Below the pieces are notes generated by a model. It made no database searches. It had not been told where the DNA came from and saw only the letters and a program-made list of their open reading frames with translations. Source: a virus. Taken from it: DNA of 19,123 bases. Position 1 is the first letter of the stretch, and every line of letters starts with the position of its first letter. Below are positions 1-19,123 of the stretch, piece by piece. The stretch lies in the UHGV virus genome UHGV-0246749; one strand, written 5' to 3'. The position numbers and the translations under genes were made by a program.

Positions 1-9
1 CTGGATTTT

Positions 10-1362: not shown

Positions 1363-1376
1363 CGATAGAAGCTCAA

Positions 1377-4743: not shown

Positions 4744-4798
4744 CGATACCTCCAGACGCCCAAGAGCGATACGAGCTTACATATTTCATGATATTAAA

Positions 4799-5035: not shown

Positions 5036-5043
5036 GTATTACC

Positions 5044-5190: not shown

Positions 5191-5193
5191 TCT

Positions 5194-5472: not shown

Positions 5473-5520
5473 ACGCTGCTGCGAAGACCACCCCCAGAGT
5501 TACGATTGCATCAGGCCAGC

Positions 5521-6033
5521 TCATTGATTCACCTCCTGCCTGTCGTCCGGCATTCGCTCACTACAGCTTATCCAACCATCCGGAGTTACCGGAGAGCTGG
5601 TTGACGCTTCCGGGATTTTCCGAAAATTATTGGTTGACGAATCTTTATTTTCCCGAAAGTTTCCGGACTGAAGCATGGCTTCGCGGCAATCGTTCCAGCC
5701 TGTAGCGTATGCAGCCGCTTTGCTGCTGCCTTCAACTGGCGCATCCTGCCAATACATTTCTTCCGGCACTATCGGCGCTGGAGGGGCGGCAAATAGATAT
5801 CCGCCAAAGTCAGGAAGCTCTCTAATGGCCTGTACGAATTTTTGTTTGCCTACGTCAACTCCTAATGGGTAATGAGCTATAATCTTTGCCACCGGCTCTG
5901 CTGCCAGTGATGCCAGCGCAATCCGTGCCAGCTCTTCCGCTTCTTCTGCTGGAAGCACAACGTTGCTACCCGGTCCGTATGTTTCGCGCCACTGCTTGAT
6001 TGTCAGCAGTCGCTCTTTGGTTATAGTGGTCAT
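5521..6033 (-). CDS. Phage protein with DUF551-like C-terminal motif, possibly truncated
   Basis: 170 aa ending '...DGWISCSERMPDDRQEVNQ'; the 'W-I-x-C-x-E-R-x-P' pattern fits the start of DUF551 domains, but the ORF stops about 12 residues later. Confidence 0.55.
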   Translation of the reverse strand: MTTITKERLLTIKQWRETYGPGSNVVLPAEEAEELARIALASLAAEPVAKIIAHYPLGVDVGKQKFVQAIRELPDFGGYLFAAPPAPIVPEEMYWQDAPVEGSSKAAAYATGWNDCREAMLQSGNFRENKDSSTNNFRKIPEASTSSPVTPDGWISCSERMPDDRQEVNQ

Positions 6034-6043
6034 GTGTTACTCC

Positions 6044-6307
6044 TTAACCCGCAGTGCTTTCAACTGATGAGGGGAACAAAATCTTTTCATCAAACCCTGC
6101 ATTCATATCATGGACAGCAACACACCAATCCATCGACGAACGATTATCAAGAGCCTCCATGATTTCATCCATGCGGCGTAGGTCATACAGGTAAATGGTT
6201 TTATCGCCAATGGTGTAAAAACCAATTTTTTTTGGTGATGGACAGCGATCAAGAACGTCCTGTAATTCATTCAACCATGCCCGTTCTTTTTTTGTTAAAG
6301 TGGCCAT
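6044..6307 (-). CDS. Hypothetical phage early protein
   Basis: 87-aa ORF with ATG start, tightly packed between neighbours on the same strand. Confidence 0.5.
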   Translation of the reverse strand: MATLTKKERAWLNELQDVLDRCPSPKKIGFYTIGDKTIYLYDLRRMDEIMEALDNRSSMDWCVAVHDMNAGFDEKILFPSSVESTAG

Positions 6308-6308
6308 A

Positions 6309-6845
6309 TCACTCTCCTTTGATACGAATGTCAGCGACGCGTAATGCGTGTTCTAGGTCAATCAGGTAAAGCCAACTGCCATTTTCTTTAGGTATCATGA
6401 CTTGTCGCTCATCTGCATTTATCGGGTGTCCATATCGAAGGTCGTAGCGAGTCGGTAATTGAACTTCCCGCGCTTCCAGTTCAGCAATACGCTTGCACCC
6501 ATCAGAGATAACTCCCTCGTAATACTCGCGCTGCTCGTTGAGTTTTGATTTTGCTGCTTCAAGCTCAACGCGCAGCTTCCCAACCGTAAGCGCAATATCC
6601 TCGTTCTCCTGGTCGCGGCGTTTGATGTATTGCTGGTTTCTTTCCCGTTCATCCAGTAGTGCCAGCACGGTTTCTGGTCCGGTCAGAAATTTGAAGGCAT
6701 TGAGCGCATCAATATCCACACCGTAATCTTTAAGTTCCTGTTCACTTAACAAATCATCATCAGCTGGCAACATTAACAGGCGTTCCATTGCTGGAATTGC
6801 ACGTTCCGCCACCTCACGCAGTGACTGGTAATTAATTTCGCTCAC
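6309..6845 (-). CDS. Ea22-like protein (paralog 1)
   Basis: 178 aa; N-terminus 'MSEINYQSLREVAERA' matches the conserved N-terminus of the neighbouring paralog; GTG start overlaps the upstream stop as GTGA. Confidence 0.6.
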   Translation of the reverse strand: MSEINYQSLREVAERAIPAMERLLMLPADDDLLSEQELKDYGVDIDALNAFKFLTGPETVLALLDERERNQQYIKRRDQENEDIALTVGKLRVELEAAKSKLNEQREYYEGVISDGCKRIAELEAREVQLPTRYDLRYGHPINADERQVMIPKENGSWLYLIDLEHALRVADIRIKGE

Positions 6846-7528
6846 TGGTTGCCTCCTTTGCGAAGCTGGGCAGCAAAGTCAACTAACCACTCAGTCATTT
6901 CAACCTTCCCTACCAGGTCTGAACCAGGGTGCATACAGCAATCACTCTGCGCCGCTTTGAAATCCTTATACTCATATTCTTGGGCCACCAGATTTTTTGC
7001 AGCTTCTATAGCAGCATCCACCCCCTGCGCCCGGACTTCAGCCAGGAAAGCATCAGTGGTTGGCGTTTCAGGTATCTGTCTCCTCATCCGTTCTATTGCA
7101 TGATTGAACCCGAAGTCTTCCGCGAGAGATACGTCATCCATATTGTCATTGTCATCCTCAATATCCCGTGATTCTGGAATTGCAGACTTTATTCCCGCAT
7201 TCTCCGCTGTCAGCGCCGCGCACTTGGCCTCAAGAGCGGCAACCACTTCCTGATGGTCTTTGTACTTAACGTATGAGCCGGAGATGTCATCACCTTCGGT
7301 GTTTAGCCATGCGTCATTGCAATTCACTGCGTAGGTTCTGATGCTCATGTTGATGCTCTCCCGCCCCTGACAGACGCCAGGCCAGTCAATAAAGTATCCG
7401 CAATGCCTACCCTCAGACGTGCGCGCAGGATAAATGCCGTTATGACCCGGCAAAATATATGCTACCCATTCATCTTGCGTTGCCTGTTCCGCCGCCTCGC
7501 GCAGTGCCTGATAGTCAATCTTGCTCAC
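6842..7528 (-). CDS. Ea22-like protein (paralog 2)
   Basis: 228 aa; N-terminus 'MSKIDYQALREAAEQA'; GTG start; acidic stretch and coiled-coil-like segment. Confidence 0.6.
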   Translation of the reverse strand: MSKIDYQALREAAEQATQDEWVAYILPGHNGIYPARTSEGRHCGYFIDWPGVCQGRESINMSIRTYAVNCNDAWLNTEGDDISGSYVKYKDHQEVVAALEAKCAALTAENAGIKSAIPESRDIEDDNDNMDDVSLAEDFGFNHAIERMRRQIPETPTTDAFLAEVRAQGVDAAIEAAKNLVAQEYEYKDFKAAQSDCCMHPGSDLVGKVEMTEWLVDFAAQLRKGGNQ

Positions 7529-7853
7529 TGGCAGCCTCCTTTGCCGGGATTTCTAACTTTTGAGTGGTTGTATCAAATTCAAACAACTTAACCACGTCAT
7601 CAAACAGGACATAATCACCATCAGGATCTTCAGTCATATCTGCGCCACAATCCTGACCGCACGAGTCGCAACCATCCATATCAAGCTCGTATCGCTTCAG
7701 GTTTGCGATATTTGATAAATTCAGCGCCAGTACAGCCAGGTCATAAACCTCTTCGGCAGTGACATCGCTGTTCAGTCCCATTTCATGGCGATATATGATT
7801 TTTTCTACTCGTTGTTTTGTGATCGTCATTTTTCTCTTCACTCCGATATACAA
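7515..7853 (-). CDS. Hypothetical phage protein, start uncertain (TTG at 7853; ATG at 7829 after GGAG; ATG at 7781 one nt after the upstream stop)
   Basis: 112-aa track ORF; acidic Cys-containing C-terminal half; the choice of start changes the overlap with the upstream gene. Confidence 0.45.
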   Translation of the reverse strand: MYIGVKRKMTITKQRVEKIIYRHEMGLNSDVTAEEVYDLAVLALNLSNIANLKRYELDMDGCDSCGQDCGADMTEDPDGDYVLFDDVVKLFEFDTTTQKLEIPAKEAASEQD

Positions 7854-8100
7854 GGATTACTACACCCCCTCTGCTGATTGCGCGAGCTGGATCCCCTGGT
7901 TCCATGCCGTCAATTCCGAAGGCTTCGGAAAACGCATTCATTGCCTTCTGGCGTTCATCCTGCTTACGGCGTTTATTCCATTTTTTCAGGAACAACAGCG
8001 ACAGCCACCGTCCGCTGCAGAACACGATGTAAAAATAACCAAGGAGCGCCAGGCCGACATTCAGGGCCGTTTCTATGGTTAGTTGTGAGTCAGTTGCCAT
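7783..8100 (-). CDS. Small putative membrane protein (one hydrophobic helix followed by a basic stretch)
   Basis: N-terminal 'LNVGLALLGYFYIVFCSGRWLSLLFL' is hydrophobic, followed by 'KKWNKRRKQDERQK'; ATG start at 8100. Confidence 0.45.
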   Translation of the reverse strand: MATDSQLTIETALNVGLALLGYFYIVFCSGRWLSLLFLKKWNKRRKQDERQKAMNAFSEAFGIDGMEPGDPARAISRGGVVILVYRSEEKNDDHKTTSRKNHISP

Positions 8101-8338
8101 TTCTTACCTGTTTAAGTAACTGGTTGAACATAACACTTAGGGGATTGCTGTATCCAAACGGCAGATTGTTTACGCAGTACAGAATCGTTTTGTTTTTTTC
8201 TCCAGTTCGTACTATTAACCCATTCCACAATAACCGTGATAATTCATTACTGATAGAAGTTGCGCTTCTTCCAAGTGCGAGGGATATATCTTCTCTACTG
8301 CAATCTGGATTTTCCTGGATATACTCGATAACGGTCAT
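8090..8338 (-). CDS. Small protein with possible winged-helix fold
   Basis: Track ORF 8090-8380; I prefer the ATG at 8338 (MTVIEYIQ...), preceded by AAGGGA and clear of the upstream gene. Confidence 0.45.
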   Translation of the reverse strand: MTVIEYIQENPDCSREDISLALGRSATSISNELSRLLWNGLIVRTGEKNKTILYCVNNLPFGYSNPLSVMFNQLLKQVRNGN

Positions 8339-8348
8339 GTGGTCCCTT

Positions 8349-8930
8349 TTACTTAATATCTGTTTCGGATTGCATGCCATGAGTATTCATTTCGTTAATA
8401 ATTTCATCCAGAAGGATTTCAAGCCCTTCTCGACCCATATCTGAAAGAATGAAACCTTTATCAGGGGAAGTAGTGAGCATTTTCTGATAAAGAAACAGCG
8501 CTCTTCCCATTCCTTCAGCTTCGCCGTATTTTTGAATTAAATTCCATTCAATATACTGTTGTAAGGCAAATCGAATGGGGCCGGGATATATCGTCATAAA
8601 CCCATACATCCCGTTATATACCACGGCGTGTTCAATTGTTCCGTGTTCATTCAGGATATCAATTGTGCCGTTCTTGTCTTCTTCTTCGTTGATGAATGTC
8701 GTCACATACAACCATCGCCACTGAGCAACCTTCATCTCAACCGGAAGTTTACCCAGTAATCCTGCTTCGTCGGCTTGCGCCAGACACTGAAGGATACGTA
8801 AACCTCGCACATTAGGAGTATCGAATTCTCCGGCATCCAGACGACGTATGGCGTCGTGATAATCAATCGTCATACTGCCAGTTCGTATACCATTGGCTGT
8901 TGCTTCAGCCTGGAATTCATCGTATTGCAT
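8349..8930 (-). CDS. Hypothetical protein, 193 aa, no recognised domain
   Basis: ATG start; translationally coupled to the upstream 60-aa gene (its stop TAA lies within the GAGGAA ribosome-binding region). Confidence 0.6.
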   Translation of the reverse strand: MQYDEFQAEATANGIRTGSMTIDYHDAIRRLDAGEFDTPNVRGLRILQCLAQADEAGLLGKLPVEMKVAQWRWLYVTTFINEEEDKNGTIDILNEHGTIEHAVVYNGMYGFMTIYPGPIRFALQQYIEWNLIQKYGEAEGMGRALFLYQKMLTTSPDKGFILSDMGREGLEILLDEIINEMNTHGMQSETDIK

Positions 8931-8935
8931 GATAT

Positions 8936-9118
8936 TTATTCCTCATCTTCATCTGCTGGTGCAATAACGTCATATCCTGCCCTTTCTGCAATAAACAGGA
9001 ATGTTGAAAGAGTTCCTACAAGTTCATCGTCATGAACATGGCGAATGAATATTACTTTCCCGTTTTTGATGGTCAGCAATATTCTGGTTTGTTCGTGTTC
9101 TGCTGTTTTCTGATGCAT
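8936..9118 (-). CDS. Hypothetical small protein, 60 aa, acidic C-terminal tail
   Basis: ATG preceded by GGGAG; ends 'APADEDEE'; 5-nt gap to the next gene. Confidence 0.5.
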   Translation of the reverse strand: MHQKTAEHEQTRILLTIKNGKVIFIRHVHDDELVGTLSTFLFIAERAGYDVIAPADEDEE

Positions 9119-9120
9119 TA

Positions 9121-9234
9121 TTATCTCCCGTATGCTTTACGCAGAAATAAGCAGGCAATATGCATGTAATTTTCACCGTATTGTGCAATAAGGCAGGCGG
9201 TCTTGTGTGATGCCATATTCTTTATAAAAGTCAC
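9121..9234 (-). CDS. Possible small ORF (37 aa), not in the ORF track
   Basis: My own translation: (GTG)TFIKNMASHKTACLIAQYGENYMHIACLFLRKAYGR; AGGAGG lies 7 nt before the GTG; its stop is 2 nt before the 60-aa gene start. Could be non-coding leader instead. Confidence 0.25.
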   Translation of the reverse strand: MTFIKNMASHKTACLIAQYGENYMHIACLFLRKAYGR

Positions 9235-9312
9235 AATAAAGCCTCCTGTGGTTTAAGGTTGTAACAATCCCCGGCGATAAAACCGCAATAAACGTTCAGG
9301 GCATATTTGTTG

Positions 9313-9678
9313 TTATTGCGCTAATTCTTTTTCGGCAGCAGCTTTTGTATACTCACATGCAAAACTCAGAATTTCGCTGCCGAGTGTTTTCGTTTCGTGA
9401 TTACTGGACATATGTAATACCTGTGTTGCATGCAATAAATGATAAACATTTACCGCAAATGAATCAGGCTCCAGGCAAATGCCTTCGTAATTATCTTGCT
9501 GTGAGGTTGTTTCTGTCATTGCTCCTGAAGTGCATACGAGCCTGTTTTTGACAATTCTCTTTTCTCTAATCACTATATCGGCAACATCTATTGCCTTTAC
9601 AACCTCCGGGAGAAGTTCCGGGTTTGTATAATCAAAGTCATCAACATGGAGAACAGTTATGTTTTCGAACTTTTTCAT
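9313..9678 (-). CDS. Hypothetical protein, 121 aa, AT-rich gene
   Basis: ATG preceded by GAGGA at 5-nt spacing; flanked by AT-rich intergenic DNA on both sides; no recognised domain. Confidence 0.55.
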   Translation of the reverse strand: MKKFENITVLHVDDFDYTNPELLPEVVKAIDVADIVIREKRIVKNRLVCTSGAMTETTSQQDNYEGICLEPDSFAVNVYHLLHATQVLHMSSNHETKTLGSEILSFACEYTKAAAEKELAQ

Positions 9679-9806
9679 GGTTTCCTCAGCTGACTTATAT
9701 GTTCTGCTATATAGCGAGTCTCAGAAGTGTTTTCATATTGAGACTGTTTCCGCAATGATTGATAAAAATGTTCGCATGTACCTTGAGGGGCGAAGCGGCG
9801 ATTATG

Positions 9807-10310
9807 TCACCATTGGTATTGGTTCTTCCGTAGAAGAGCTTCGCGAGATAAGGGGCAAACTTGTTGAGATGCGTCATGGTGTTGCTGCTCCTCACTTTTT
9901 GGTTGCTCCGGAGGAGTAACCTCACCAGTTAACAGCCACATCGGATCGCAGCCAAGAATATTTGCCAGTGGGATAAGCATACTGATAGTTGGTTCATACT
10001 CTCCGCTCTCCCACTGGATGATAATTTCTTCATCGAGATCGAGCAGCCTGGCGAGTTCGGCGGTTGTTAAGCCGCAGGCTTCGCGTTGGGTGCAAAGACG
10101 GTTGTTGATTGCAGAATTTTTGTTCTGTAAAAGCATTGCTGACGATAGCTTTCTGGATATGCTATTTGTCATATCCCATGCCAGTCCTGCGCATGACTCT
10201 ATATCGCTAGAGAGCGTAGCATCAGGTGTTGCTTTTGCTATTAGTGTAATGAGGCTGCCGAGGTTTTTCAGTTCTTCGAGACAGTCAAGAGTTGTAGCTT
10301 TATTGATCAT
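9807..10310 (-). CDS. HTH (XRE-type) DNA-binding protein with a 58-aa N-terminal extension; first gene downstream of the putative pL
   Basis: 'CGLTTAELARLLDLDEEIIIQWESGEYEPTISMLIPLANILGCDPMWLLTG' is a classic XRE-family helix-turn-helix; ATG at 10310 preceded by GAGG; an internal ATG at 10136 would give an N-terminal HTH instead. Confidence 0.6.
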   Translation of the reverse strand: MINKATTLDCLEELKNLGSLITLIAKATPDATLSSDIESCAGLAWDMTNSISRKLSSAMLLQNKNSAINNRLCTQREACGLTTAELARLLDLDEEIIIQWESGEYEPTISMLIPLANILGCDPMWLLTGEVTPPEQPKSEEQQHHDASQQVCPLSREALLRKNQYQW

Positions 10311-10413
10311 GAGATGATACCTCAGTTACGAACTTTGTTTTATGGTAACTAAGGTATCAAGGTGTGGCAAGTGATTTTTGATACTTTGGTTTCTTTTTGT
10401 GTTTTGTGTCTGG
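10311..10413 (-). promoter_or_regulatory. Putative OL/pL region: two copies of the operator 12-mer plus a leftward promoter
   Basis: 'ttgatactttgg' at 10378-10389 and its near-reverse-complement 'ctaaggtatcaa' at 10349-10360; on the minus strand -35 TTGCCA (10365-10370), 17-nt spacer, -10 TACCAT (10342-10347). Confidence 0.45.
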
Positions 10414-11070
10414 TCAGAAAATATCCCACCTGGCATCAACCACAACACCTACTATTTCGCAATCATTGTCCATTTCTATGATTGGATATTGTGGATTAAG
10501 GGGCTTTAGAAACGCCTTTCCCATGTCAGAAATATATTTTTTGAATGTTGCTTCATTGGTAGATTTTTTTCTGGCGATGACGTAACACCCTGAAAAAACT
10601 TCTTTATCTGGGTTGACAAGGATCGACATTCCTTCAGGAAATGTTATTCCTACGGGCGAAGTCATTGAGTCTCCGTGCACTTCCAGCCAGAACCCCCTCT
10701 CACCAGCGTATTTTACAGAATGCCTCCAATTATCCTGATCATACATGTTGTAGTCATCACCAGAAGTTGCGAATAATCCTGCCTGAACCCAGTTAATTAC
10801 AGGGTAAGAGTGTGCTGTGTCTCTCTGTGGGCAGCTCTTAACATTATTTTCCCAATGCTTATCTTTTTCATCTCCGTTCTGAAGCCACTGCGGTGAACAC
10901 CGCAGTGCAGCTGCAACTTTAAAAAGGGTGTCACCGTTGAAACTTTTTGTAAGGCCTTGCTCGGCTTTACTTATTGCAACTCTGGTGACCCCAGCTTTTT
11001 TAGCCAACGCATCTTGTGTTAACCCAGCTTTTTGCCGTGCGTTGATGAGACGTTCACCTAAAGACTTCAT
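10414..11070 (-). CDS. cI: CI-type prophage repressor (N-terminal HTH, C-terminal LexA/S24 peptidase-like domain)
   Basis: Track ORF extends to 11145, but the ATG at 11070 (MKSLGERL...) follows AGGAG. N-terminal HTH 'LTQDALAKKAGVTRVAISKAEQG'; C-terminal 'HGDSMTSP' and 'ARKK' fit the S24 Ser/Lys dyad; 'VQAGLF' contains a possible Ala-Gly autocleavage site. Confidence 0.85.
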   Translation of the reverse strand: MKSLGERLINARQKAGLTQDALAKKAGVTRVAISKAEQGLTKSFNGDTLFKVAAALRCSPQWLQNGDEKDKHWENNVKSCPQRDTAHSYPVINWVQAGLFATSGDDYNMYDQDNWRHSVKYAGERGFWLEVHGDSMTSPVGITFPEGMSILVNPDKEVFSGCYVIARKKSTNEATFKKYISDMGKAFLKPLNPQYPIIEMDNDCEIVGVVVDARWDIF

Positions 11071-11181
11071 TTTTCTTCTCCTCTCATGGCTGTTGATACT
11101 AAAGTAACAGAATTTCTTGATACTTTGGGTTCCTGTGGTTAACATCGTTGGATAACAAAGTATCTGGCGTGAGACTAAAGA
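11071..11181. promoter_or_regulatory. Putative OR/pR/pRM region: three copies of the operator 12-mer and a rightward promoter
   Basis: 'ttgatactaaag' at 11093-11104, 'ttgatactttgg' at 11117-11128, reverse copy 'caaagtatct' at 11156-11165; rightward -35 TTGATA (11117-11122), 17-nt spacer, -10 TAACAT (11140-11145). Confidence 0.5.
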
Positions 11182-11409
11182 ATGACCCTTTATGAAATAT
11201 TAAAAATTCAATTTAAAACCAATGCCGCTATTGGTCGCAGGTTCCCAAAGAAAGGAAGGCCTCGTGGCAGTCAAGGTGTTGGAAAGTGGAAAACGCGAGG
11301 TGTTCCGGAGGATGTTGCCATTCTTTGTCATCTGGATCCGAGCATTCCATATACACACCCAAGTCTAGCGAATACAGAAGATGACAAGCCCACAGGAGAC
11401 CAACAATGA
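11182..11409 (+). CDS. Possible small basic protein in the Cro position; could be non-coding leader
   Basis: 75-aa ORF rich in K/R/G with no HTH I can recognise; weak ribosome-binding site; stop overlaps the next ATG. Confidence 0.3.
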   Translation: MTLYEILKIQFKTNAAIGRRFPKKGRPRGSQGVGKWKTRGVPEDVAILCHLDPSIPYTHPSLANTEDDKPTGDQQ

Positions 11410-12113
11410 ACACCGCAATTTTTAACGGCAAAGCATCCATGACCAGCGTTGAGATCGCAGAGTTGGTGGGAAGCCGACCAGATAGTGTTAAGAGAACTAT
11501 TGAAACACTGGCTAAAAAGGGAATCATCCAATTTCCACAGACTGTGGAAATTGAGAATAAACAATCACTTGGGCCTCGCCGATTTTCTAGCGCGTATGTA
11601 TTCGAAGGTGAACGAGGTAAGCGCGACAGCATCATTGTCGTCGCACAGCTCTGTCCTGAATTCACAGCTTGCCTGGTAGATCGCTGGCGCGAACTGGAAG
11701 AACAGATCCGTAAGCCAATGAGCGAAATCGAAATGGTTGCCGCGATGGCTCTTGAAGCCGTTCGCCAACAGAAACGGATCACTCAGGTGGAAGAAAAAGT
11801 CAGCCACGTTGCTGAAACAGTCGAGCAAATTAAAAAGGGCACTATTCGTGAGGGCTATGCCGGATATCGCCAACTGAAAGCAAAAACCGGTTTGTCAGAT
11901 GATAAATGCCGCAATCTGGTGAACGCCTATCAAATTCCTACAGACACACATGAGTTCATGACGCCGGACGGATTGTTGTCACGTCGCGCAATTGTTGCTG
12001 TGGAACCGTTTATGGCTGCTTTTTATCGGGTTATGGAGGAAGCAGAACCGCGAGGGACTCGCTGGTATCACCCGAAAATGGGGTTATTTCAGGTTATTGG
12101 TTGGCAGCGATGA
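11406..12113 (+). CDS. Rha-like / antirepressor-like DNA-binding regulator
   Basis: 235 aa; ATG preceded by AGGAG; N-terminal 'MTSVEIAELVGSRPDSVKRTIETLAKKG' parallels the N-terminal region of the Rha protein at 12526. Confidence 0.55.
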   Translation: MNTAIFNGKASMTSVEIAELVGSRPDSVKRTIETLAKKGIIQFPQTVEIENKQSLGPRRFSSAYVFEGERGKRDSIIVVAQLCPEFTACLVDRWRELEEQIRKPMSEIEMVAAMALEAVRQQKRITQVEEKVSHVAETVEQIKKGTIREGYAGYRQLKAKTGLSDDKCRNLVNAYQIPTDTHEFMTPDGLLSRRAIVAVEPFMAAFYRVMEEAEPRGTRWYHPKMGLFQVIGWQR

Positions 12114-12136
12114 AAAAAAGCCGGGAGTAACCCGGC
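12113..12136 (-). terminator. Intrinsic terminator oriented for leftward transcription
   Basis: Seven A's (12113-12119) then stem gccggg / cccggc with loop agtaa (12120-12136); on the minus strand this is a hairpin followed by a U-tract. No T-tract follows on the plus strand. Confidence 0.4.
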
Positions 12137-12332
12137 TCACTCAACATCAATAACGGGGAGCTGTTTCGCATAAAACGGCTCCGAAACATCCAAGAACAGT
12201 TCTAAAGATATCAGCAGCTATATGATCATTTCAAGACCAAATATTGATTCTGCAATTCCGGGACGTTACACTGCTCAGGCACCTTATAAAGCGGGTGCCG
12301 GGCGTGGAAACCCGAAATTCAATATAGAGCAC

Positions 12333-12354
12333 AACCGCGCTCATGCGGTTTTTT
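12333..12354 (+). terminator. Weak candidate rightward terminator (tR1-like position)
   Basis: 'aaccgc gctcat gcggtt' followed by T's to 12354; short GC stem, so low confidence. Confidence 0.3.
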
Positions 12355-12525
12355 CGTGTCATGAGCATCGTTACGCCCAAATTATGGTGGGGCGTGCAGG
12401 GCCAACTTCGGTTGGGCCGGGTTCTATGTTGACCGGTATTTCCACCCCTGTACGTCTCACCACCTATATGGTCGTGGAAAGCCTTGGTGGTGAGTTCATT
12501 GAATTCAACATAGGGGCTGTCACCA

Positions 12526-13076
12526 TGACTACTCTCCCAACCCAATCTCACCCTGAAATCACGATTATCAATGGTCGCGTTGTCACCACATCTCTTGCAG
12601 TAGCTAATTACTTTACTAAACGGCATGAGCGGGTTTTAGATAGAATTAGAAACCTCGAATGTTCCGCTGAATTTACTGAACACAATTTTGTGTTAAGTGA
12701 ATACACCGACGCATCAGGCCGCAAACTACCTTGCTATCAAATCACCCGCGATGGCTTCGCGTTCCTTGCCATGGGCTTCACTGGTAAACGTGCTGCCCGG
12801 TTCAAAGAGGCATACATCAACGCCTTTAACCTGATGGAGAAGAGTTTATCAGGTGCCGATGCGTCTGATATGTCAGCTGTCGCACGAAACGCCAGAGGCG
12901 TATACCTGCATTTGCGTGAAATCCATCAAATCTGGACAAGCCAGCTTTATCCAATGCTTAAGGCCGTTGAATCTCCGCTGGCTAGCAAACTGTACGACCG
13001 TGTTGGTGATGCTGTTTTTGGCGCTGCACTTGTTGATTCCAGGCTGAATGGTTCTGACAAGGAGGTTCGCCCATGA
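12526..13076 (+). CDS. Phage regulatory protein Rha
   Basis: 'ITIINGRVVTTSLAVANYFTKRHERVLDRIRNL...ITRDGFAFLAMGFTGKRAARFKEAYINAFNLMEK' matches the Rha family as I recall it. Track ORF starts at 12222, but the upstream 101 codons look non-coding; I take the ATG at 12526. Confidence 0.7.
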
Positions 13077-13267
13077 TTAGTTACGAAATCATCATCTCCA
13101 CTACGGAATACAGAAACGATGTATCAGTTCGCACGGATGTATCTGTCTGGCACCGTCGCTATAAATCCAGAAAAACAGCGGAACTGAAAGCGGCAGAGAT
13201 GTGTGAAACCATCTCAATGAAAGGTAGCCCGGTTAAATACGTAACTACGGTGGAGGTGCGTCCATGA
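13073..13267 (+). CDS. Hypothetical small protein (64 aa)
   Basis: ATGA overlap with the Rha stop; part of a chain of coupled small ORFs. Confidence 0.45.
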   Translation: MISYEIIISTTEYRNDVSVRTDVSVWHRRYKSRKTAELKAAEMCETISMKGSPVKYVTTVEVRP

Positions 13268-13488
13268 TCCGCCACATCGTTAATTCCCTGTATCACCGAT
13301 ACAACCGTTGCCCCCGTGTGGGGCAGTGGTTCGCCACCAGCAACGGTCACGTTCTGCGGGTTTGCCTAGTCAACGCTGAAAGCCAGAAAGTCGTGTGCGA
13401 ACTACAGGGGCGTAGCTACACCATCAGTTACCCTCTGGCGGTATTTCTGTCTGGAAAAATGTTTAAGCGTCTGGGAGGTGTGGCGTGA
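13264..13488 (+). CDS. Hypothetical small protein (74 aa)
   Basis: ATGA overlap with the upstream stop; Cys-containing. Confidence 0.45.
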   Translation: MIRHIVNSLYHRYNRCPRVGQWFATSNGHVLRVCLVNAESQKVVCELQGRSYTISYPLAVFLSGKMFKRLGGVA

Positions 13489-13784
13489 ACTGTTTTCAGT
13501 TTGTGTGCGGATGTGCTTTCGATAACCCGATTCAGCGCCTGATTATGTTGCGTGTTTTGATGTCGGGTTCTTCAGACGGTGAAGGCGAGAGAGTTATTGA
13601 TCATCAGGTGCTTGCTGATTTCTGCTGTTGTTCTAAGCAAGCGATATTCAGGGAAACCCTGGCACTGGAAAGAGCTGGTTATCTTCATATCCGAAAAATT
13701 GCAACGCTTACTATTGATGCAAAAGCCAGACTACAACCTGCGCGTGGCTACACAATTCTCATGCCGCGGAAGGAGGTTGTATGA
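13485..13784 (+). CDS. Hypothetical protein (99 aa), possibly DNA-binding
   Basis: GTGA overlap with the upstream stop; ends in ATGA overlap with the replication initiator. Confidence 0.45.
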   Translation: MNCFQFVCGCAFDNPIQRLIMLRVLMSGSSDGEGERVIDHQVLADFCCCSKQAIFRETLALERAGYLHIRKIATLTIDAKARLQPARGYTILMPRKEVV

Positions 13785-14773
13785 GCCGTTACGCCCCCAC
13801 ACCGGAAGTTATGGCTATTGGTCAAATTAATATTTCCGGCAATGTTACACCTGCGAACTGGTGGAAATATATTCGACTACCCAGTGGGCGTCCGGATGCG
13901 ACGGCTATCGCTCTGCTTTCAGAGATCGTTTACTGGTACCGCCCGACAGAGGTCAGGGATGAGCACACCGGAGCGTTGCTGGGATATCGCAAGCGTTTTC
14001 AGGGCGACAAACTGCAAAGAAGCTACCAGGCGTTTGCTGAGCAGTTTGGTTTCGGGAAAAGGGAAACCGCAGATGCGCTGAAGCGTCTGCGCGATGCAGG
14101 GTTTATTACTCTGGATTTACGCACGGTGGAAATGCTCGATGGGGTGAAATGCAGCAATATTTTGTTTGTCGGGATCAACCCACAGGCAATTGCGGCCATC
14201 ACCACACCTTCTTCTGTTTCGCCAGAAAGTAACAGCAATAATGCAATCAGCGATACAGCTATTACGTTAAAACGGAACACCCCCCGACGTCATAACGGAA
14301 CAGGGGATACGCCGAATGTTGATACAAATACAGAGATTACTACAGAGATTACAACGGAGACTAAAAACACTATTGATGCATCCGCTGACGCGTCTGCGCC
14401 AGCGCGTTCTGCCCGACAGGAATATTCATCGGAATTTGAACAGGCCTGGCAGGAATATCCCAAACGTGCTGGTGGCAATTCCAAGTCAGCAGCCTTCAAA
14501 GCCTGGAAAGCCCGTATCAGGGAGGGAATAAAACCGGAGACCATGCTTGATGGCGTGAAGCGGTATGCCGCCTGGGTACGTGCTACAGGAAATACCGGCA
14601 CACAGTTCGTGAAGCAGGCTGCGACGTTCTTTGGACCCGATCGTCACTTCGAAGATTACTGGCAACAGCCAGCCGCTCACGGAGGTGGGCGACAGCGACA
14701 GGTCGATGTCCTGGCTGGCCTGGGAGCCATGTCTGACAAATTCGGTAAATCCAGTAACAAATTGACATTCTGA
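13781..14773 (+). CDS. Phage replication initiator / replisome organiser (lambda O-like role)
   Basis: 330 aa; ATG after AGGAGG; sits directly upstream of the DnaC-like and DnaB-like genes; carries an internal tandem repeat at the DNA level. Confidence 0.7.
   Translation: MSRYAPTPEVMAIGQINISGNVTPANWWKYIRLPSGRPDATAIALLSEIVYWYRPTEVRDEHTGALLGYRKRFQGDKLQRSYQAFAEQFGFGKRETADALKRLRDAGFITLDLRTVEMLDGVKCSNILFVGINPQAIAAITTPSSVSPESNSNNAISDTAITLKRNTPRRHNGTGDTPNVDTNTEITTEITTETKNTIDASADASAPARSARQEYSSEFEQAWQEYPKRAGGNSKSAAFKAWKARIREGIKPETMLDGVKRYAAWVRATGNTGTQFVKQAATFFGPDRHFEDYWQQPAAHGGGRQRQVDVLAGLGAMSDKFGKSSNKLTF
14329..14364. repeat. Tandem 12-bp direct repeats inside the initiator gene (candidate origin iterons)
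   Basis: 'tacagagattac' at 14329-14340 and 14341-14352 (perfect), then degenerate 'aacggagactaa' at 14353-14364; encodes TEITTEITTETK. Confidence 0.35.
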
Positions 14774-14783
14774 GGTGACAGCG

Positions 14784-15683
14784 ATGATGACGATTGACCA
14801 ACGTGAGAAACAAACAAGACTACAGGCGCGAATGGATGAGTTACGGGCAGAAATGGATGAGTTACGGGCAGAGATTGCATTTGCTCAGAAGGGCGAAAAG
14901 CCATGGCCTTATCGTTCCTGCCTGATGCGTGAAGGTCGCGGATATTGCGAAAAACACGGTAAATATCGTACGCATATACTGGTGTGGATCGATCGTAATG
15001 GCGAGGACAGAGAAAAAATTTCATGCTGCCCTGACTGCTTGATCGCTGAGGCCAGTGATTTGACCATGGAACTGTCGTCCCTCAAGGCGGAAGAACTGAC
15101 TGATAACGCCGGAATTGCTCTGCGTTTTCGGGACTGCGAGTTTGATAATTATCTGGAGGTTAATCCTGACGCAGCCAGAAATCTTGCGGCCTGTCGCCGC
15201 TATGCGGAGAACTGGCCAGATATGCTGGAGAACGGTACCAGTCTTGTTATGACCGGCAGTTGCGGTACCGGGAAAAATCATCTGGCGGTATCAATGGCAA
15301 AACACATCATCCGTAACTATCTGGCCAGTGTGGAGATCACCGACGTGATGCGCCTTACCCGGGCTGTGAAAAACTGCTGGCGGAATGACAGTGAAAAAAC
15401 AGCGGATGACGTCATTGAGCATTATGCGTCACTGGATTTGCTGATTGTCGACGAAGTCGGCGTTCAGTTTGGCAGTGCGGCTGAAATGGCCATTTTGCAG
15501 GAAATTATCAATGCCCGGTATGAGGGTATTTTGCCAACTATCCTGATCAGCAACCTTTCACCGGAAGAATTGTGGGCGTTCATCAGTCCCCGGATTGCCG
15601 ACAGGATCACCGATGGCGGGCGCAACTGGTTGTCGTTTAACTGGCCCAGCTACCGTTCTCGTATCGGAGGTGTTGCCGCATGA
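14784..15683 (+). CDS. DnaC-like helicase loader (IstB-like AAA+ ATPase)
   Basis: Walker A 'GSCGTGKNHLA' and Walker B 'LLIVDEVG'; track start is GTG at 14775, I prefer the ATG at 14784 after GAGGTG; stop overlaps the helicase start as ATGA. Confidence 0.85.
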   Translation: MMTIDQREKQTRLQARMDELRAEMDELRAEIAFAQKGEKPWPYRSCLMREGRGYCEKHGKYRTHILVWIDRNGEDREKISCCPDCLIAEASDLTMELSSLKAEELTDNAGIALRFRDCEFDNYLEVNPDAARNLAACRRYAENWPDMLENGTSLVMTGSCGTGKNHLAVSMAKHIIRNYLASVEITDVMRLTRAVKNCWRNDSEKTADDVIEHYASLDLLIVDEVGVQFGSAAEMAILQEIINARYEGILPTILISNLSPEELWAFISPRIADRITDGGRNWLSFNWPSYRSRIGGVAA

Positions 15684-17080
15684 CCAGCCAGAACACCCCG
15701 GCATGGCGTAACGATGACCTGGAAGGCGCTGTCATCGGTGCGTTTTTTCTGCGTGGGGCCGATCCGGAAGTGATGGATATTCTGGCCACACTTCCGGCGG
15801 ATGTATTTTTTGTGCGTCAGTACCGGGATATTTACGCGGGGATTTGCAGACAGGCTCGCATATCCGGCGTCATTGACCCCGTACTGCTGTGCAATGAGAT
15901 GCCGGAACTTGCCCCGGTGATTACCGACACCGGACGCAAAACCTGGGTGAAGTCTTCACTGGAGCACTATGTCGCAGCGTTGCGGCGCAATGCCGCACTG
16001 CGCGATGCAGAAAAAACACTGACTGAAGCATTACAGAATTTACGTGATGCGTATACCTGTGAAGCAGCCGAGGATGCCCTGAAGGATGTGCAGAACATGA
16101 TGGCCTCACTGTCGACCGGAAAGGGCGTCATTCAGCCGGTTCACATTGATGATGTCCTTCCGGAAGTGGTCGACCGTGTTGAATGCCGCAATCAGGGACT
16201 GGAGAAATCCAGGGCGCTGATGACCGGTATTGATGAACTGGACGCAAAAACGGGCGGTATGGAGCCCGGTGACTTGGTATTCATTGCCGCCCGTCCTTCG
16301 ATGGGGAAAACCGAACTTGCGCTGGACATCATCGACAAGGTGACTGAGCAGGGGCATGGCGTGCTTCTGTTCACCATGGAGATGGCGAACATCCAGATTG
16401 GTGAACGTATGGTGTCTGCTGCCGGTGGAATGCCGGTATCCCGTCTTAAGTCTGTTGCCCGTTTTGAAGATGAAGACTGGGCGCGTTTCTCGCAGGGCGT
16501 GGGACGAATGACGGGGCGTAATATCTGGATGGTGGATCAGGCAAACCTGACCATTGATGAGATATGTGCAACCACGAAGCACCACCGGATGAAACACCCG
16601 GAAACGGCGCTGGTGGTGGTCGATTACCTCGGTCTGATTAAAACCCGCAGCACGGGGCGTCACGACCTTGCTGTGGGGGAAATCTCAAAGGGACTTAAAA
16701 GCCTGGCAAAATCCGGCGGTTTCCCGCTGATTGCTCTGAGCCAGCTCTCCCGAGGCGTGGAATCCAGACCCAATAAACGTCCCATGAACTCAGACCTGAA
16801 AAACTCCGGGGAAATAGAGGCTGATGCCGACATCATTCTGATGCTTTACAGGGATGAGGTGTATAACCCGGATACACAGGCCAGAGGCATAGCAGAAATC
16901 AACATCACGAAACAGCGTAATGGCACACTCGGGACCATTTACCGGCGTTTTCATAACGGACATTTTCTGCCTGTGGACCAGGAGAGTGCCCGGGTTCTTT
17001 CCACACCCATGACGCCGGGCAATCCGCGCAGATACAGCAATAACCGCATGTCGGGCAGTAAAACGGAGCGTTTATTTTGA
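15680..17080 (+). CDS. DnaB-family replicative DNA helicase
   Basis: 466 aa; Walker A-like 'ARPSMGKTELAL', 'LVVVDYLGLI', 'IALSQLSR' and 'ILMLYRDEVY' fit DnaB helicase motifs. Confidence 0.9.
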   Translation: MTSQNTPAWRNDDLEGAVIGAFFLRGADPEVMDILATLPADVFFVRQYRDIYAGICRQARISGVIDPVLLCNEMPELAPVITDTGRKTWVKSSLEHYVAALRRNAALRDAEKTLTEALQNLRDAYTCEAAEDALKDVQNMMASLSTGKGVIQPVHIDDVLPEVVDRVECRNQGLEKSRALMTGIDELDAKTGGMEPGDLVFIAARPSMGKTELALDIIDKVTEQGHGVLLFTMEMANIQIGERMVSAAGGMPVSRLKSVARFEDEDWARFSQGVGRMTGRNIWMVDQANLTIDEICATTKHHRMKHPETALVVVDYLGLIKTRSTGRHDLAVGEISKGLKSLAKSGGFPLIALSQLSRGVESRPNKRPMNSDLKNSGEIEADADIILMLYRDEVYNPDTQARGIAEINITKQRNGTLGTIYRRFHNGHFLPVDQESARVLSTPMTPGNPRRYSNNRMSGSKTERLF

Positions 17081-17334
17081 ACAACAGAACAATCACTGTT
17101 TCACCGGAACAACTTCGTCGGCAGGCGCAGGAGATGCTTCGTTGTGCTGAACAGATGGAAAAAACGAGCGTGAAAAAAGATACGCTCCGCAAGCAGCTTA
17201 CTCCGGCGCTTCGTGATCTGCTGCAGGCAAAACACCGCACACAAAAGGCGGTGGATGAGCTGGTGGATTGCGTGGCGGAACTGGAAGGACAGGTAAGCCA
17301 GTTTGAAACGCTGGTGAAGGAGTTTACTGCGTGA
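17077..17334 (+). CDS. Hypothetical protein (85 aa), predicted coiled coil; TTG start
   Basis: TTGA overlap with the helicase stop; no ATG near the 5' end. Confidence 0.4.
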   Translation: MNNRTITVSPEQLRRQAQEMLRCAEQMEKTSVKKDTLRKQLTPALRDLLQAKHRTQKAVDELVDCVAELEGQVSQFETLVKEFTA

Positions 17335-17380
17335 TGGCTGAATTTTTTTCTCCTGCGTTCATGCAATACCGTTCGCTGAG

Positions 17381-18376
17381 GTGACCGTGAGAGCACTGCT
17401 GACCCCTGAAATTGCCCCGCGTATGGGGATCGTCTTGTTCAGACCCGGTTCAGAGCTGATGCCCCTGTTTATGCAGGGGCGTGTCCTGCTGGAGCCTGAG
17501 CCGGAACGTTATTCATCTTTTGCCAGTGGTGCCGTTCCGGCAGCATCACAACCGCTGGCGGATGATCCTGCCGTTCGGGCCGTGTTCCGCCATGAGGCGG
17601 TGATCCGTCGTGCTGGTGGCGTGGAATGCCTTGAGAGCTGGTTACTTCGTGAAAAAGGCTGCCAGTGGCCTCATTCCGGATGGCACAGCGAGAACATGAC
17701 CACAATGCGACACGCGCCGGGCGCAATCCGTCTGTGCTGGCACTGCGATAACCTGCTTCGCGATCAGTTCACGGAACGTCTGGAATCAATGGCAACGGAT
17801 AACTGTGCCCGCTGGGTGTTGTCCGTAGTCCGTCGTGATCTCGGTTTTGATGACAGCCACGTTGTGACAATGCCGGAACTGTGCTGGTGGCTGGTTCGTA
17901 ATGACCTGGCGGATGCCTTACCGGAAAGTGCAGCCCGTAAGGCACTGAGATTACCGAAGCCTGTTGTGCCGTCTGTCACCCGGGAAAGTGACCTTGTGCC
18001 TTCGGTTCCTGCCACCAGCATCATCCGGGATAAGGCGAAAAAGGTGCTGGCGCTGAAAGTGGATCCGGAGTCGCCGGAGTCTTTTATGTTACGCCCCAAA
18101 CGTCGTCGCTGGGTTAATGAAAAGTACACGCGCTGGGTTAAGACGCAGCCGTGTGCATGTTGTGGTAAGCCAGCCGACGATCCTCATCACCTGATTGGTC
18201 ATGGTTAGGGTGGAATGGGTACAAAAGCGCATGACCTTTTTGTGTTGCCTTTGTGCAGAAAACACCATGACGGACTGCATGCGGATACCGTGGCATTTGA
18301 AGAGAAGTATGGTTCCCAACTGGAGCTGATATTTCGTTTTATCGATCGCGCGCTGGCGATTGGTGTGCTGTCCTGA
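17381..18376 (+). pseudogene. DUF968-like protein with HNH-like C-terminal motif, interrupted by an in-frame TAG at 18206-18208
   Basis: Frame reads '...PHHLIGHG' TAG 'GGMGTKAHDLFVLPLCRKHHDGLHADTVAF...' and continues 55 more codons to a TGA at 18374-18376; the stop splits what looks like a single conserved His/Cys motif. Confidence 0.55.
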
Positions 18377-18393
18377 TTTTGTGGAGAAAGTTG

Positions 18394-18777
18394 ATGCGTG
18401 ATATTCAGATGGTTCTCGAACGCTGGGGAGCATGGGCGGCAAATAATCATGAGGATGTGACCTGGTCGTCCATTGCTGCCGGTTTTAAGGGATTAATTCC
18501 TTCAAAAGTAAAATCTCGCCCGCAATGTTGTGACGATGACGCGATGATCATTTGCGGGTGCATGGCCCGTCTGAAAAAGAACAACAGCGATTTACACGAT
18601 TTATTAGTAGATTATTATGTATGTGGTATGACATTCATGTCACTGGCAAGTAAGCATTGCTGCTCGGATGGTTATATCGGGAAAAGGTTACAGAAGGCTG
18701 AGGGCATAATTGAAGGGATGTTAATGGCATTAGATATCCGGTTAGATATGGATATCGTTGCTAATAATTCTAATTGA
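18394..18777 (+). CDS. Q: Late-gene antiterminator Q (the type I associate with 933W-like phages)
   Basis: '[33 protein letters not shown]...' as I remember that Q family; ATG at 18394 after GGAGA (track start is a TTG at 18379); followed by a leader and strong terminator. Confidence 0.75.
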
Positions 18778-18913
18778 TATGCAATTGTTTACTAAAAGTT
18801 ATTAAAAATGGGGCGTGGAAACGCCCCCAAATAAAGGGTAATATATAACAGAAGGTTTATATAGTAAGAAGCAAGGTAGTGCTTCTAAAGGAAGTGGCTT
18901 GAGGGCTCCACTT

Positions 18914-18953
18914 ATATGTTGCGGAGGCAAAGCCTCCCGCAACATATCTTTTT
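18914..18953 (+). terminator. Strong intrinsic terminator (tR'-like) downstream of Q
   Basis: About 14-bp stem 'atatgttgcggagg' / 'cctcccgcaacatat' with one bulged C, loop 'caaag', then 'ctttttcg'. Confidence 0.7.
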
Positions 18954-18964
18954 CGTAAGTCAGA

Positions 18965-19123
18965 TTAGAACTGATAAACCAGACCTACAGCGACGATGTC
19001 GTCGGTATCAATACCAGCTGTTTTGGTAAACTTACTATCGTCAATTAAGTTGATTTTGTAATCAACAAAAGTGGACATGTTTTTATTAAAGTAGTAAGTA
19101 GCACCGACATCGACATACTTGAC
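18965..19123 (-). CDS. 3' end of an OmpC/NmpC-like outer-membrane porin gene (partial; start lies beyond the window)
   Basis: My own minus-strand translation: ...[52 protein letters not shown]; the ending 'GLVYQF' is the typical porin C-terminal strand. Not in the ORF track because no start is in the window. Confidence 0.8.

What the first reader, a model, noticed from the sequence alone, without database searches (positions are those of the whole stretch)
18778..19123. Q is followed by a terminated leader and a convergent porin gene rather than tRNAs, toxin or lysis genes
Downstream of Q are a GC hairpin (18811-18829), a strong terminator (18914-18953) and then the 3' end of a porin gene on the opposite strand. 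The Q-proximal slot is a classic site for cargo genes; a porin there would alter the host surface and may protect against phages using that receptor.
Basis: partly seen in the sequence, partly recalled or inferred. Interest (0 to 1): 0.45.

Follow-up and report, generated by a model that had tools for sequence, protein, structure and literature searches.

The report
Known prophage porin NmpC/Lc with ipeX
The stretch after the phage Q gene is the tail end of the well-known lambdoid-prophage porin gene (NmpC/Lc type) plus its structured 3' untranslated region, the published regulatory RNA ipeX; it is an ordinary, very common cargo module, not a late-gene leader.

Summary
The sequence features are real. 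Two hairpins (18810-18827, 18914-18947) and the last 52 codons of a porin gene on the minus strand (18965-19123) follow Q (QuuD, 18394-18777).

The module is a textbook one. The 187-bp Q-porin spacer is 96-97% identical to the quuD-nmpC spacer of K-12 prophage DLP12 and to the region downstream of lc in phage PA-2. That is where the regulatory RNA ipeX was mapped; it is made as the 3' end of the porin transcript and represses OmpC/OmpF.

The first hairpin is the intrinsic terminator of the porin/ipeX transcript on the minus strand, not part of a Q leader. The second has its U-run on the plus strand and may stop Q-ward transcription.

The true late promoter, leader and terminator of this Q family sit 1.64 kb beyond Q, past the porin and outside the window. 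In 23 porin-less relatives from other genera the same motif directly abuts Q, so ipeX plus porin is a cargo insertion between Q and its promoter.

In genomes identical to the window the porin is intact (360 aa) and lies inside the prophage. It is followed by three tRNA genes, an esterase gene and the lysis genes.

Verdict: already known; low interest.

The parts
18394..18777 (+). Q antiterminator gene (QuuD, 127 aa), Q21-type family
   Evidence: Pfam PF06530 matches at E=6.7e-54 over the full length. Similar to the solved phage-21 Q protein, 6P18/6JNX, E=4e-8. RefSeq names the identical protein WP_001204776.1 'antitermination protein QuuD'.
18778..18964 (-). 3' untranslated region of the porin gene; homologue of the published ipeX RNA locus (five stem-loops on the minus-strand RNA)
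   Evidence: 96% identical to the K-12 DLP12 quuD-nmpC spacer and 97% column identity with the region downstream of PA-2 lc. [quoted passage not shown]
18804..18827 (-). Intrinsic terminator of the porin/ipeX transcript: stem-loop 18827-18810, then A + UUUUU (18809-18804) on the minus strand
   Evidence: Listed as a terminator-like site on the minus strand by the scanner. The same site is called in phage 4A7. The stem is invariant in 17 of 18 variants, one carrying a single stem substitution; otherwise only the loop varies. -13.8 kcal/mol.
18914..18955 (.). Long hairpin (18914-18947). It is the first stem-loop of the porin 3' UTR on the minus strand. On the plus strand it is followed by a U5 run (18949-18953), so it could terminate transcription coming out of Q.
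   Evidence: Folds in both strands, -21.9 and -22.5 kcal/mol. The T-run is on the + strand only. Absent from porin-less Q relatives, so it arrived with the porin cassette. Terminator function on the + strand is inferred, not shown.
18842..18913 (-). Three further predicted stem-loops of the 3' UTR (18913-18892, 18886-18867, 18863-18842)
   Evidence: Minimum-free-energy and centroid structures. The same helices appear in the consensus fold of 18 variants. Too little variation for a covariation test.
18965..19123 (-). Last 52 codons plus stop of an NmpC/Lc-type prophage porin gene. The full gene is 1,083 bp / 360 aa and continues beyond the window.
   Evidence: Translation. Identical full-length gene in strains U1 and CE10, WP_000737259.1. 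Porin_1 PF00267, E=6.7e-151. 92% identical to K-12 NmpC and 89% to PA-2 Lc, against 62-67% to OmpC/OmpF/PhoE/OmpN.

Best explanation
The region is the left end of the classical lambdoid 'porin moron': a leftward-transcribed NmpC/Lc-type general porin gene with its own structured 3' untranslated region (ipeX).

The porin is transcribed from its own promoter in the lysogen, towards Q. The transcript runs past the stop codon (18965), through a ~160-nt structured tail, and ends at the hairpin 18827-18810 plus its U-run.

According to published work on the identical DLP12/PA-2 sequence, that tail lowers production of the host porins OmpC and OmpF. The lysogen therefore swaps its major porins for the phage's porin, changing permeability and removing a common phage receptor.

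The cassette (ipeX + porin + porin promoter, about 1.6 kb) sits between Q and Q's own late promoter, leader and terminator. Those therefore lie on the far side of the porin, outside the window.

The long hairpin at 18914-18947, with a U-run on the plus strand, probably also stops early transcription leaving Q from running antisense into the porin gene.

Shown here: sequence identity, anatomy, strand of the terminators, position of the late-promoter motif, intactness of the porin and its position inside the prophage.

Taken from the literature or inferred: expression in the lysogen, OmpC/OmpF repression, phage exclusion, and plus-strand termination.
For: - Window 3018-19123 is 100% identical to prophages in strains U1 and NMBU_W05E18. 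The order there is integrase ... QuuD, porin (-, 360 aa), methyltransferase remnant, tRNA-Ile/Arg/Arg, esterase, holin, lysozyme, Rz, terminase.
- The spacer is 96% identical to the K-12 DLP12 quuD-nmpC spacer. It shows 97% column identity with the region downstream of PA-2 lc, and the PA-2 and K-12 sequences are identical to each other there.
- The porin is 92% identical to NmpC and 89% to Lc, but only 62-67% to the host porins.
- A minus-strand terminator is called at 18827-18810. The minus-strand RNA fold has z=-6.6.
- The same Q-ipeX-porin block occurs at 98-99% identity in isolated temperate phages (4A7, ev017, Lambda_4C10, PhiR49_1, Perceval), where it is followed by holin, endolysin and Rz.
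- It is present with at least 80% coverage in 2,082 of 5,426 complete E. coli genomes. A relative of the porin is encoded in 458 IMG/VR viral contigs.
- The motif TTTACG[AT][AT]CGTAAA, followed by a -10-like hexamer, GTTAAGAGTGG and an intrinsic terminator, lies from 13 nt before to 28 nt after the Q stop in 23 porin-less QuuD homologues (Shigella/E. coli, Trabulsiella, Citrobacter, Pantoea, Xenorhabdus, Providencia, Morganella).
- In the window's lineage that motif lies 1,638 nt downstream (L003 29399), and it also lies beyond the porin in DLP12, 4A7 and PA-2.
[quoted passage not shown] IpeX represses ompC and ompF (PMC5069750). The NmpC gene of prophage Perceval is expressed 10-fold above local background in an LF82 lysogen (PMC9928086).
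Against: - Nothing here measures RNA or protein. Expression of this allele, the 3' ends, and repression of OmpC/OmpF are not shown for this sequence.
- This allele differs from the characterised K-12/PA-2 ipeX at about 4% of positions, including the long hairpin and several loops.
- There is no Rfam model for ipeX to score against.
- The 18 spacer variants available are too similar for covariation, and the two informative substitutions point to opposite strands.
- The original 2006 ipeX paper and the 1985-86 nmpC/lc papers could not be read here, so details of ipeX boundaries come from reviews and my recollection.
- The window holds only 52 codons of the porin; intactness is inferred from identical genomes.
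Confidence: 0.85

Rival explanations
1. One reading: the two hairpins form a Q-dependent late leader. In this view a late promoter lies just after Q, a short RNA is made, and it stops at the strong terminator 18914-18953 unless Q modifies the polymerase.
For: In lambdoid phages the late promoter and its terminator normally lie directly after Q (general knowledge; cassette described in bioRxiv 10.1101/651190). The long hairpin does carry a U5 run on the plus strand.
Against: No promoter-like site lies on the + strand between 18778 and 18913. The promoter/leader motif that directly follows Q in 23 relatives is absent from the window (0 matches) and present once, 1,638 nt downstream beyond the porin. 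The homology breakpoint with other late regions falls right after that far-side terminator. The first hairpin has its U-run on the other strand. The whole spacer is the published 3' UTR of the porin gene.
Confidence: 0.04
2. Crossed convergent terminators. The long hairpin is primarily the terminator of the early (Q) operon, the short GC hairpin is the terminator of the porin gene, and the overlap is only a by-product with no regulatory RNA function in this allele.
For: Each hairpin has a U-run on one strand only, in the crossed arrangement. About 4% divergence from the characterised ipeX.
Against: The long hairpin is absent from porin-less Q relatives and travels with the porin cassette. The ~160-nt spacer is kept nearly invariant across 90 loci, including three further stem-loops that a pair of terminators would not need. 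Published work assigns regulatory activity to this stretch. This view is compatible with, rather than exclusive of, the main explanation.
Confidence: 0.1
3. The porin is the host's own ompC (as the RefSeq annotation names it), or a dead remnant at the edge of the prophage.
For: RefSeq/PGAP labels the gene 'ompC: porin OmpC'. In K-12 the homologous nmpC is disrupted by IS5.
Against: Only 66% identical to K-12 OmpC, against 92% to NmpC. It lies between Q and the lysis and terminase genes, well inside the prophage. It is full length without disruption in U1, CE10, VR50, CU42ET-1 and in isolated phages.
Confidence: 0.01

Closest known systems
nmpC of cryptic prophage DLP12 (qsr') of E. coli K-12, with the ipeX RNA downstream of it
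   Same: Same gene order (quuD, spacer, porin on the opposite strand, late promoter region, lysis genes). The spacer is 96% identical and the porin 92% identical. The same far-side promoter/terminator motif is present.
   Different: K-12 nmpC is interrupted by IS5 near its 3' end and is silent; here the gene is intact. In this prophage a methyltransferase remnant, three tRNA genes and an esterase gene lie between the late terminator and the holin, whereas DLP12 goes straight to essD.
lc (Lc porin, 'protein 2') of lambdoid phage PA-2, GenBank J02580
   Same: A leftward porin gene between Q and the lysis genes. The downstream 227 nt show 97% column identity with the window. The porin is 89% identical. 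The TTTACGTACGTAAA motif lies on the far side of lc. It is the classic lysogenic-conversion porin (my knowledge; Schnaitman 1975 as cited in PMC8065619).
   Different: The differences from Lc cluster in five short blocks (precursor residues 181-190, 220-232, 263-267, 303-306, 335-348). By position in the alignment with OmpF these correspond to surface loops L4-L8; that loop assignment is my inference. The last block is encoded inside the window.
Porin modules of isolated temperate coliphages (Bievrevirus 4A7, ev017, Lambda_4C10, PhiR49_1, LF82 prophage Perceval)
   Same: 98-99% identical over Q, spacer, porin and late promoter region. Perceval's NmpC is reported as expressed in the lysogen (PMC9928086).
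   Different: These phages continue directly into holin, endolysin and Rz after the late terminator. The window's prophage has a late region of the kind I recall from Shiga-toxin phages, with tRNA genes and an esterase gene but no toxin gene.
Phage 21 Q and its late promoter cassette (pR', Q-binding element, sigma-dependent pause, terminator)
   Same: QuuD belongs to the same Pfam family (PF06530) and matches the solved 21Q structure sequence at E=4e-8. The far-side motif has the expected layout of -35, -10, conserved initially transcribed element and terminator.
   Different: The 21Q binding element is a direct repeat of TGAGCA between -35 and -10 (PMC6606751). The QuuD-family motif is a 14-bp palindrome, TTTACG[TA/AT]CGTAAA, overlapping the -35. 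In this lineage the cassette is separated from Q by 1.6 kb of cargo.

Membership tests
NmpC/Lc prophage-encoded general porin | Enterobacterial general porin fold (Pfam Porin_1) with a C-terminal Phe | tested here: met
   PF00267, E=6.7e-151, residues 29-360. The window-encoded C-terminus ends in ...GLVYQF*.
NmpC/Lc prophage-encoded general porin | Closer to NmpC/Lc than to the chromosomal porins OmpC, OmpF, PhoE and OmpN | tested here: met
   92% to K-12 NmpC fragment 1 and 89% to PA-2 Lc, against 66, 62, 65 and 67% to OmpC, OmpF, PhoE and OmpN.
NmpC/Lc prophage-encoded general porin | Located between Q and the lysis genes of a lambdoid (pro)phage, transcribed opposite to them | tested here: met
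   Strains U1, CE10, VR50 and CU42ET-1, phages 4A7 and PhiR49_1, DLP12 and PA-2 all show this order.
NmpC/Lc prophage-encoded general porin | Expressed from the prophage and changes the outer-membrane porin profile (lysogenic conversion) | not testable with these tools
   Literature only: Perceval NmpC is 10-fold above background in an LF82 lysogen (PMC9928086), and PA-2 Lc is cited in PMC8065619.
ipeX (porin 3' UTR-derived regulatory RNA) | Sequence between the nmpC/lc stop codon and its rho-independent terminator | tested here: met
   96% identical to K-12 and 97% column identity in the three-way alignment with PA-2. Length from the stop codon to the U-run is about 161-164 nt, against the 167 nt quoted for ipeX (PMC12197685).
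ipeX (porin 3' UTR-derived regulatory RNA) | Intrinsic terminator on the porin strand | tested here: met
   GGGGCGUUUCCACGCCCC followed by AUUUUUAAUA on the minus strand.
ipeX (porin 3' UTR-derived regulatory RNA) | Lowers OmpC and OmpF production | not testable with these tools
   Not measurable here. A crude duplex-energy test against the ompC and ompF leaders was uninformative. Rfam holds no ipeX family.
Q-dependent late leader (pR' - pause - tR') at 18778-18964 | Promoter on the Q strand directly downstream of Q | tested here: not met
   No promoter-like site on the + strand between 18778 and 18913.
Q-dependent late leader (pR' - pause - tR') at 18778-18964 | Presence of the promoter/leader motif conserved next to Q in this Q family | tested here: not met
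   TTTACG[AT][AT]CGTAAA has 0 matches in the window. It occurs once per related locus, at L003 29399, which is 1,638 nt past the Q stop. In 23 porin-less relatives it lies 13 nt before to 28 nt after the Q stop.
Q-dependent late leader (pR' - pause - tR') at 18778-18964 | Intrinsic terminator on the Q strand | tested here: met
   Hairpin 18914-18947, -21.9 kcal/mol, followed by C-UUUUU. A structural match only.
Q21-type antiterminator (Pfam PF06530) | Full-length match to the family profile and similarity to the solved 21Q | tested here: met
   E=6.7e-54 over profile positions 1-118 of 118. 6P18/6JNX at E=4e-8. Family assignment as in bioRxiv 10.1101/651190.

The most novel reading that the evidence does not exclude
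The two terminators are crossed. Plus-strand transcripts would end at about 18953 and minus-strand transcripts at about 18804. The 3' end of the Q message would therefore be perfectly complementary to about 150 nt of ipeX.

On prophage induction, early transcription through Q could pair with and neutralise ipeX, or run on as antisense to the porin message. That would switch off the lysogenic-conversion programme as the phage enters lytic growth.

Nothing here tests this. It needs both 3' ends to be real and both RNAs to be present together.
Probability: 0.1. Interest if true: 0.4.

Novelty: already known. Interest (0 to 1): 0.12.

Why it matters
It matters little as a discovery. From my recollection of the literature, the porin gene between Q and the lysis genes of lambdoid phages (PA-2 lc, DLP12 nmpC) has been known since the 1970s-80s and its 3' RNA ipeX since 2006.

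The block is also very common: it is in about 38% of complete E. coli genomes.

The practical value is in annotation:
- Such genes are labelled 'OmpC' by the RefSeq pipeline although they are phage NmpC/Lc-type porins.
- ipeX is not annotated and has no Rfam family.
- For this Q family the late promoter should be sought beyond the porin, not next to Q.

The loop-level differences between porin alleles could matter for phage receptor use and antibiotic permeability in clinical isolates.

Tried and rejected
- **Rfam search.** A scan of 18300-19123 at a permissive threshold gave only two chance hits below threshold (sau-19, BSR0739). There is no ipeX family.
- **Covariation in the spacer.** 90 loci collapse to 18 near-identical variants. 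One A-to-G change favours the minus strand and one G-to-A change favours the plus strand, so the test is uninformative.
- **Direct Q-to-leader junction.** A chimeric query (Q joined directly to the far-side leader) against 5,426 E. coli genomes found none that join them within about 800 bp. This Q allele is therefore always separated from its leader there. The porin-less state was found only in more distant Q alleles and other genera.
- **ipeX pairing with host porin leaders.** Duplex-energy comparison of ipeX with the ompC and ompF leaders against mononucleotide shuffles gave z=-2.6 and -1.3. The predicted duplexes were implausibly long, so I treat the result as uninformative.
- **Primary papers.** Castillo-Keller 2006, Highton 1985 and Prilipov 1998 are not held. 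Reviews were used instead.
- **Rejected readings.** Host ompC, a disrupted remnant, a chromosomal gene outside the prophage, and a Q-dependent leader inside the window.

Full report
**Observation**

Q is the 127-aa QuuD gene at 18394-18777. It matches Pfam PF06530 at E=6.7e-54 and the solved phage-21 Q protein at E=4e-8.

Downstream lie two hairpins:
- GGGGCGT-GGAA-ACGCCCC at 18810-18827.
- A 15-pair hairpin with one bulge at 18914-18947, followed on the plus strand by C-TTTTT-CG.

From 18965 to the window end, the minus strand encodes 52 residues ending ...GLVYQF*, a porin C-terminus.

The 187-bp spacer folds much better than shuffled sequence on both strands: z=-6.6 on the minus strand and -4.6 on the plus strand. 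The described features are therefore real.

The U-run of the first hairpin (AUUUUUAAUA) is on the minus strand, where the scanner lists it as a terminator-like site. On the plus strand it is followed by CAAAUAAAG.

**Where the window comes from and what follows it**

Window 3018-19123 is 100% identical to prophages in E. coli U1 (CP041359.1) and NMBU_W05E18.

In U1 the order is:
- tyrosine integrase, early genes, replication genes, DUF968 gene, QuuD;
- a 360-aa porin on the opposite strand;
- a methyltransferase remnant, tRNA-Ile, two tRNA-Arg and a SASA-family esterase gene;
- holin, lysozyme and Rz, then terminase and portal.

The porin is thus intact and well inside the prophage. The tRNA and lysis genes are present; they simply lie beyond the window. 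CE10 and VR50 show the same layout. By my recollection this late region resembles that of Shiga-toxin phages, with no toxin gene in the corresponding position.

**What the porin is**

RefSeq calls it 'porin OmpC', but it is only 66% identical to K-12 OmpC, 62% to OmpF, 65% to PhoE and 67% to OmpN. It is 92% identical to NmpC of the K-12 cryptic prophage DLP12 and 89% to the Lc porin of phage PA-2, GenBank J02580.

The differences from Lc fall in five short blocks. By alignment position I infer that these are surface loops L4-L8. The last block is inside the window.

**What the spacer is**

It is 96% identical to the quuD-nmpC spacer of DLP12. In a three-way alignment with the 227 nt downstream of PA-2 lc, column identity is 97%, and PA-2 and K-12 are identical to each other there.

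This is the locus of ipeX. Reviews describe it as a 167-nt RNA of DLP12 that is made from the phage porin promoter as part of the porin transcript and then processed. It lowers OmpC and OmpF (PMC12197685; PMC5069750; PMC8065619, citing Castillo-Keller et al. 2006).

Here the distance from the porin stop codon to the minus-strand U-run is about 161-164 nt.

The minus-strand RNA is predicted to form five stem-loops:
- the long hairpin, directly after the stop codon;
- three smaller stem-loops;
- the GC hairpin, which acts as terminator.

Rfam has no ipeX family. The 18 variants I could collect are too similar for a covariation test.

**Where the real late leader is**

I fetched 30 loci with QuuD homologues, one genome per species. 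In 23 of them there is no porin. These come from a Shigella/E. coli lineage, Trabulsiella, Citrobacter, Pantoea, Xenorhabdus, Providencia and Morganella.

In those 23 loci a strongly conserved element lies from 13 nt before to 28 nt after the Q stop codon. It consists of:
- the 14-bp palindrome TTTACG[TA/AT]CGTAAA, which overlaps a -35-like hexamer;
- a -10-like hexamer at the usual spacing (16 nt in the window's lineage);
- a conserved GTTAAGAGTGG or GATAAGAGTGA in the first transcribed bases;
- in most loci, an intrinsic terminator 40-70 nt further on.

This layout is expected for a Q-dependent late promoter with pause element and terminator (cassette as described in bioRxiv 10.1101/651190; PMC6606751). 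The assignment of individual elements is my inference.

The window contains no copy of this motif. In the window's lineage the single copy lies at L003 29399, 1,638 nt past the Q stop and on the far side of the porin.

It occupies the same far-side position in DLP12, phage 4A7, PhiR49_1 and PA-2. Similarity between the U1 prophage and the DLP12-type phages ends immediately after that far-side terminator. This marks Q - ipeX - porin - late promoter - terminator as one co-inherited module.

No promoter-like site lies on the plus strand between Q and the long hairpin. Hence ipeX + porin + porin promoter is a 1.6-kb cargo insertion between Q and its own promoter, and the hairpins in the window are not the late leader.

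The same slot holds other leftward cargo in Citrobacter braakii: a 345-aa membrane protein and two small proteins.

**The long hairpin**

On the minus strand it has no U-run after it, so the porin transcript should read through it. On the plus strand it has a U5 run.

It could therefore stop transcription leaving Q from entering the porin gene antisense. That gives a crossed pair of convergent terminators. This is inferred from the sequence only.

It also suggests the one non-trivial possibility left open: the 3' end of the Q message would be complementary to ipeX and might neutralise it on induction. I rate this at about 10%.

**How common and how known**

- The Q - spacer - porin junction is present with at least 80% coverage in 2,082 of 5,426 complete E. 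coli genomes.
- The module occurs at 98-99% identity in isolated temperate coliphages such as 4A7, ev017, Lambda_4C10, PhiR49_1 and Perceval.
- 458 IMG/VR viral contigs encode a relative of the porin.
- In LF82, the NmpC gene of prophage Perceval is listed among genes expressed in the lysogen, 10-fold above local background (PMC9928086).

To my knowledge, lysogenic conversion by the PA-2 porin, the location of nmpC within the defective qsr' (DLP12) prophage, and ipeX are long published (references listed in PMC3333887, and PMC8065619). I could not read the primary papers here.

**Verdict**

The 'cargo porin in the Q slot' idea is right, and the receptor-protection idea fits the published PA-2/Lc and ipeX work. 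Both are already known. The 'terminated leader' reading and the implied absence of tRNA and lysis genes are wrong.

Interest is low. The useful output is a corrected annotation: a phage NmpC/Lc-type porin rather than OmpC, an unannotated ipeX, and a late promoter displaced beyond the porin.

Noticed in passing
window 18206-18208 (gene 17387-18376, +): The DUF968 gene just upstream of Q carries an in-frame stop. It reads TAG where strain CE10 has CAG (Gln), at position 274 of 329 residues. RefSeq marks it as a pseudogene with an internal stop in strain U1, and it is intact in CE10.
   Followed up: yes
window 1-3017 (568-1362 +, 1377-2900 -) and 3430-4743 (-): The left 3 kb is not shared with the otherwise identical U1 and NMBU prophages. 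It encodes a Dit-like phage tail protein and a 507-aa large serine recombinase, directly next to this prophage's tyrosine integrase. This suggests a second phage-like element abutting the prophage end near base 3018.
   Followed up: partly
L096-L120 (about 110 nt from the Q stop); L003 29399-29485; L002 7196; L009 5525; L123 1108: A conserved late-promoter-like element is specific to the QuuD branch of Q proteins across at least seven genera. It consists of the palindrome TTTACG[TA/AT]CGTAAA over the -35, a -10-like hexamer, a conserved GTTAAGAGTGG in the first transcribed bases, and then, in most loci, a terminator. It differs from the TGAGCA direct repeats bound by phage-21 Q. I do not know whether it has been described.
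   Followed up: partly
L102 3391-5726 (Citrobacter braakii) and L100 3370-3507 (C. amalonaticus): The same slot between Q and its promoter holds different inserts. In C. braakii there are three leftward genes: a 345-aa multi-pass membrane protein with no Pfam match and two small proteins. In C. amalonaticus there is a 139-nt insert with a hairpin. The slot looks like a recurrent site for leftward cargo.
   Followed up: partly
L003 29440-29530 (1.7 kb beyond Q, outside the window): In the U1/window prophage the far-side late terminator has a shorter stem than in DLP12, 4A7 and CE10 (GCGG instead of GCGGG, loop CGATGA) and a longer T-run. Directly after it the sequence switches to a methyltransferase remnant, three tRNA genes and an esterase gene. 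The recombination joint therefore lies at the terminator.
   Followed up: partly
L003 30110-31083; L001 12018-12446: By my recollection, the position between the tRNA genes and the esterase gene is where Shiga-toxin genes sit in related phages. In U1 it is empty apart from a 126-nt pseudogene, and in CE10 it holds a 142-aa protein annotated as TolA-like.
   Followed up: no
phage 434 record OL657227.1, about 41385-41993 (hit H127): The deposited genome of phage 434 carries the same Q-porin block, with the porin annotated as interrupted by IS5 after codon 346, as in K-12 DLP12. A possible explanation is that the sequenced stock acquired this region from the K-12 cryptic prophage.
   Followed up: no
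window 18965-19123 and RefSeq annotations of U1, CE10, VR50: The RefSeq pipeline names this phage porin 'ompC: porin OmpC', and phage records call it 'OmpD', 'NmpC' or 'OmpC'. ipeX is not annotated in any record seen, including K-12 NC_000913.3.
   Followed up: yes
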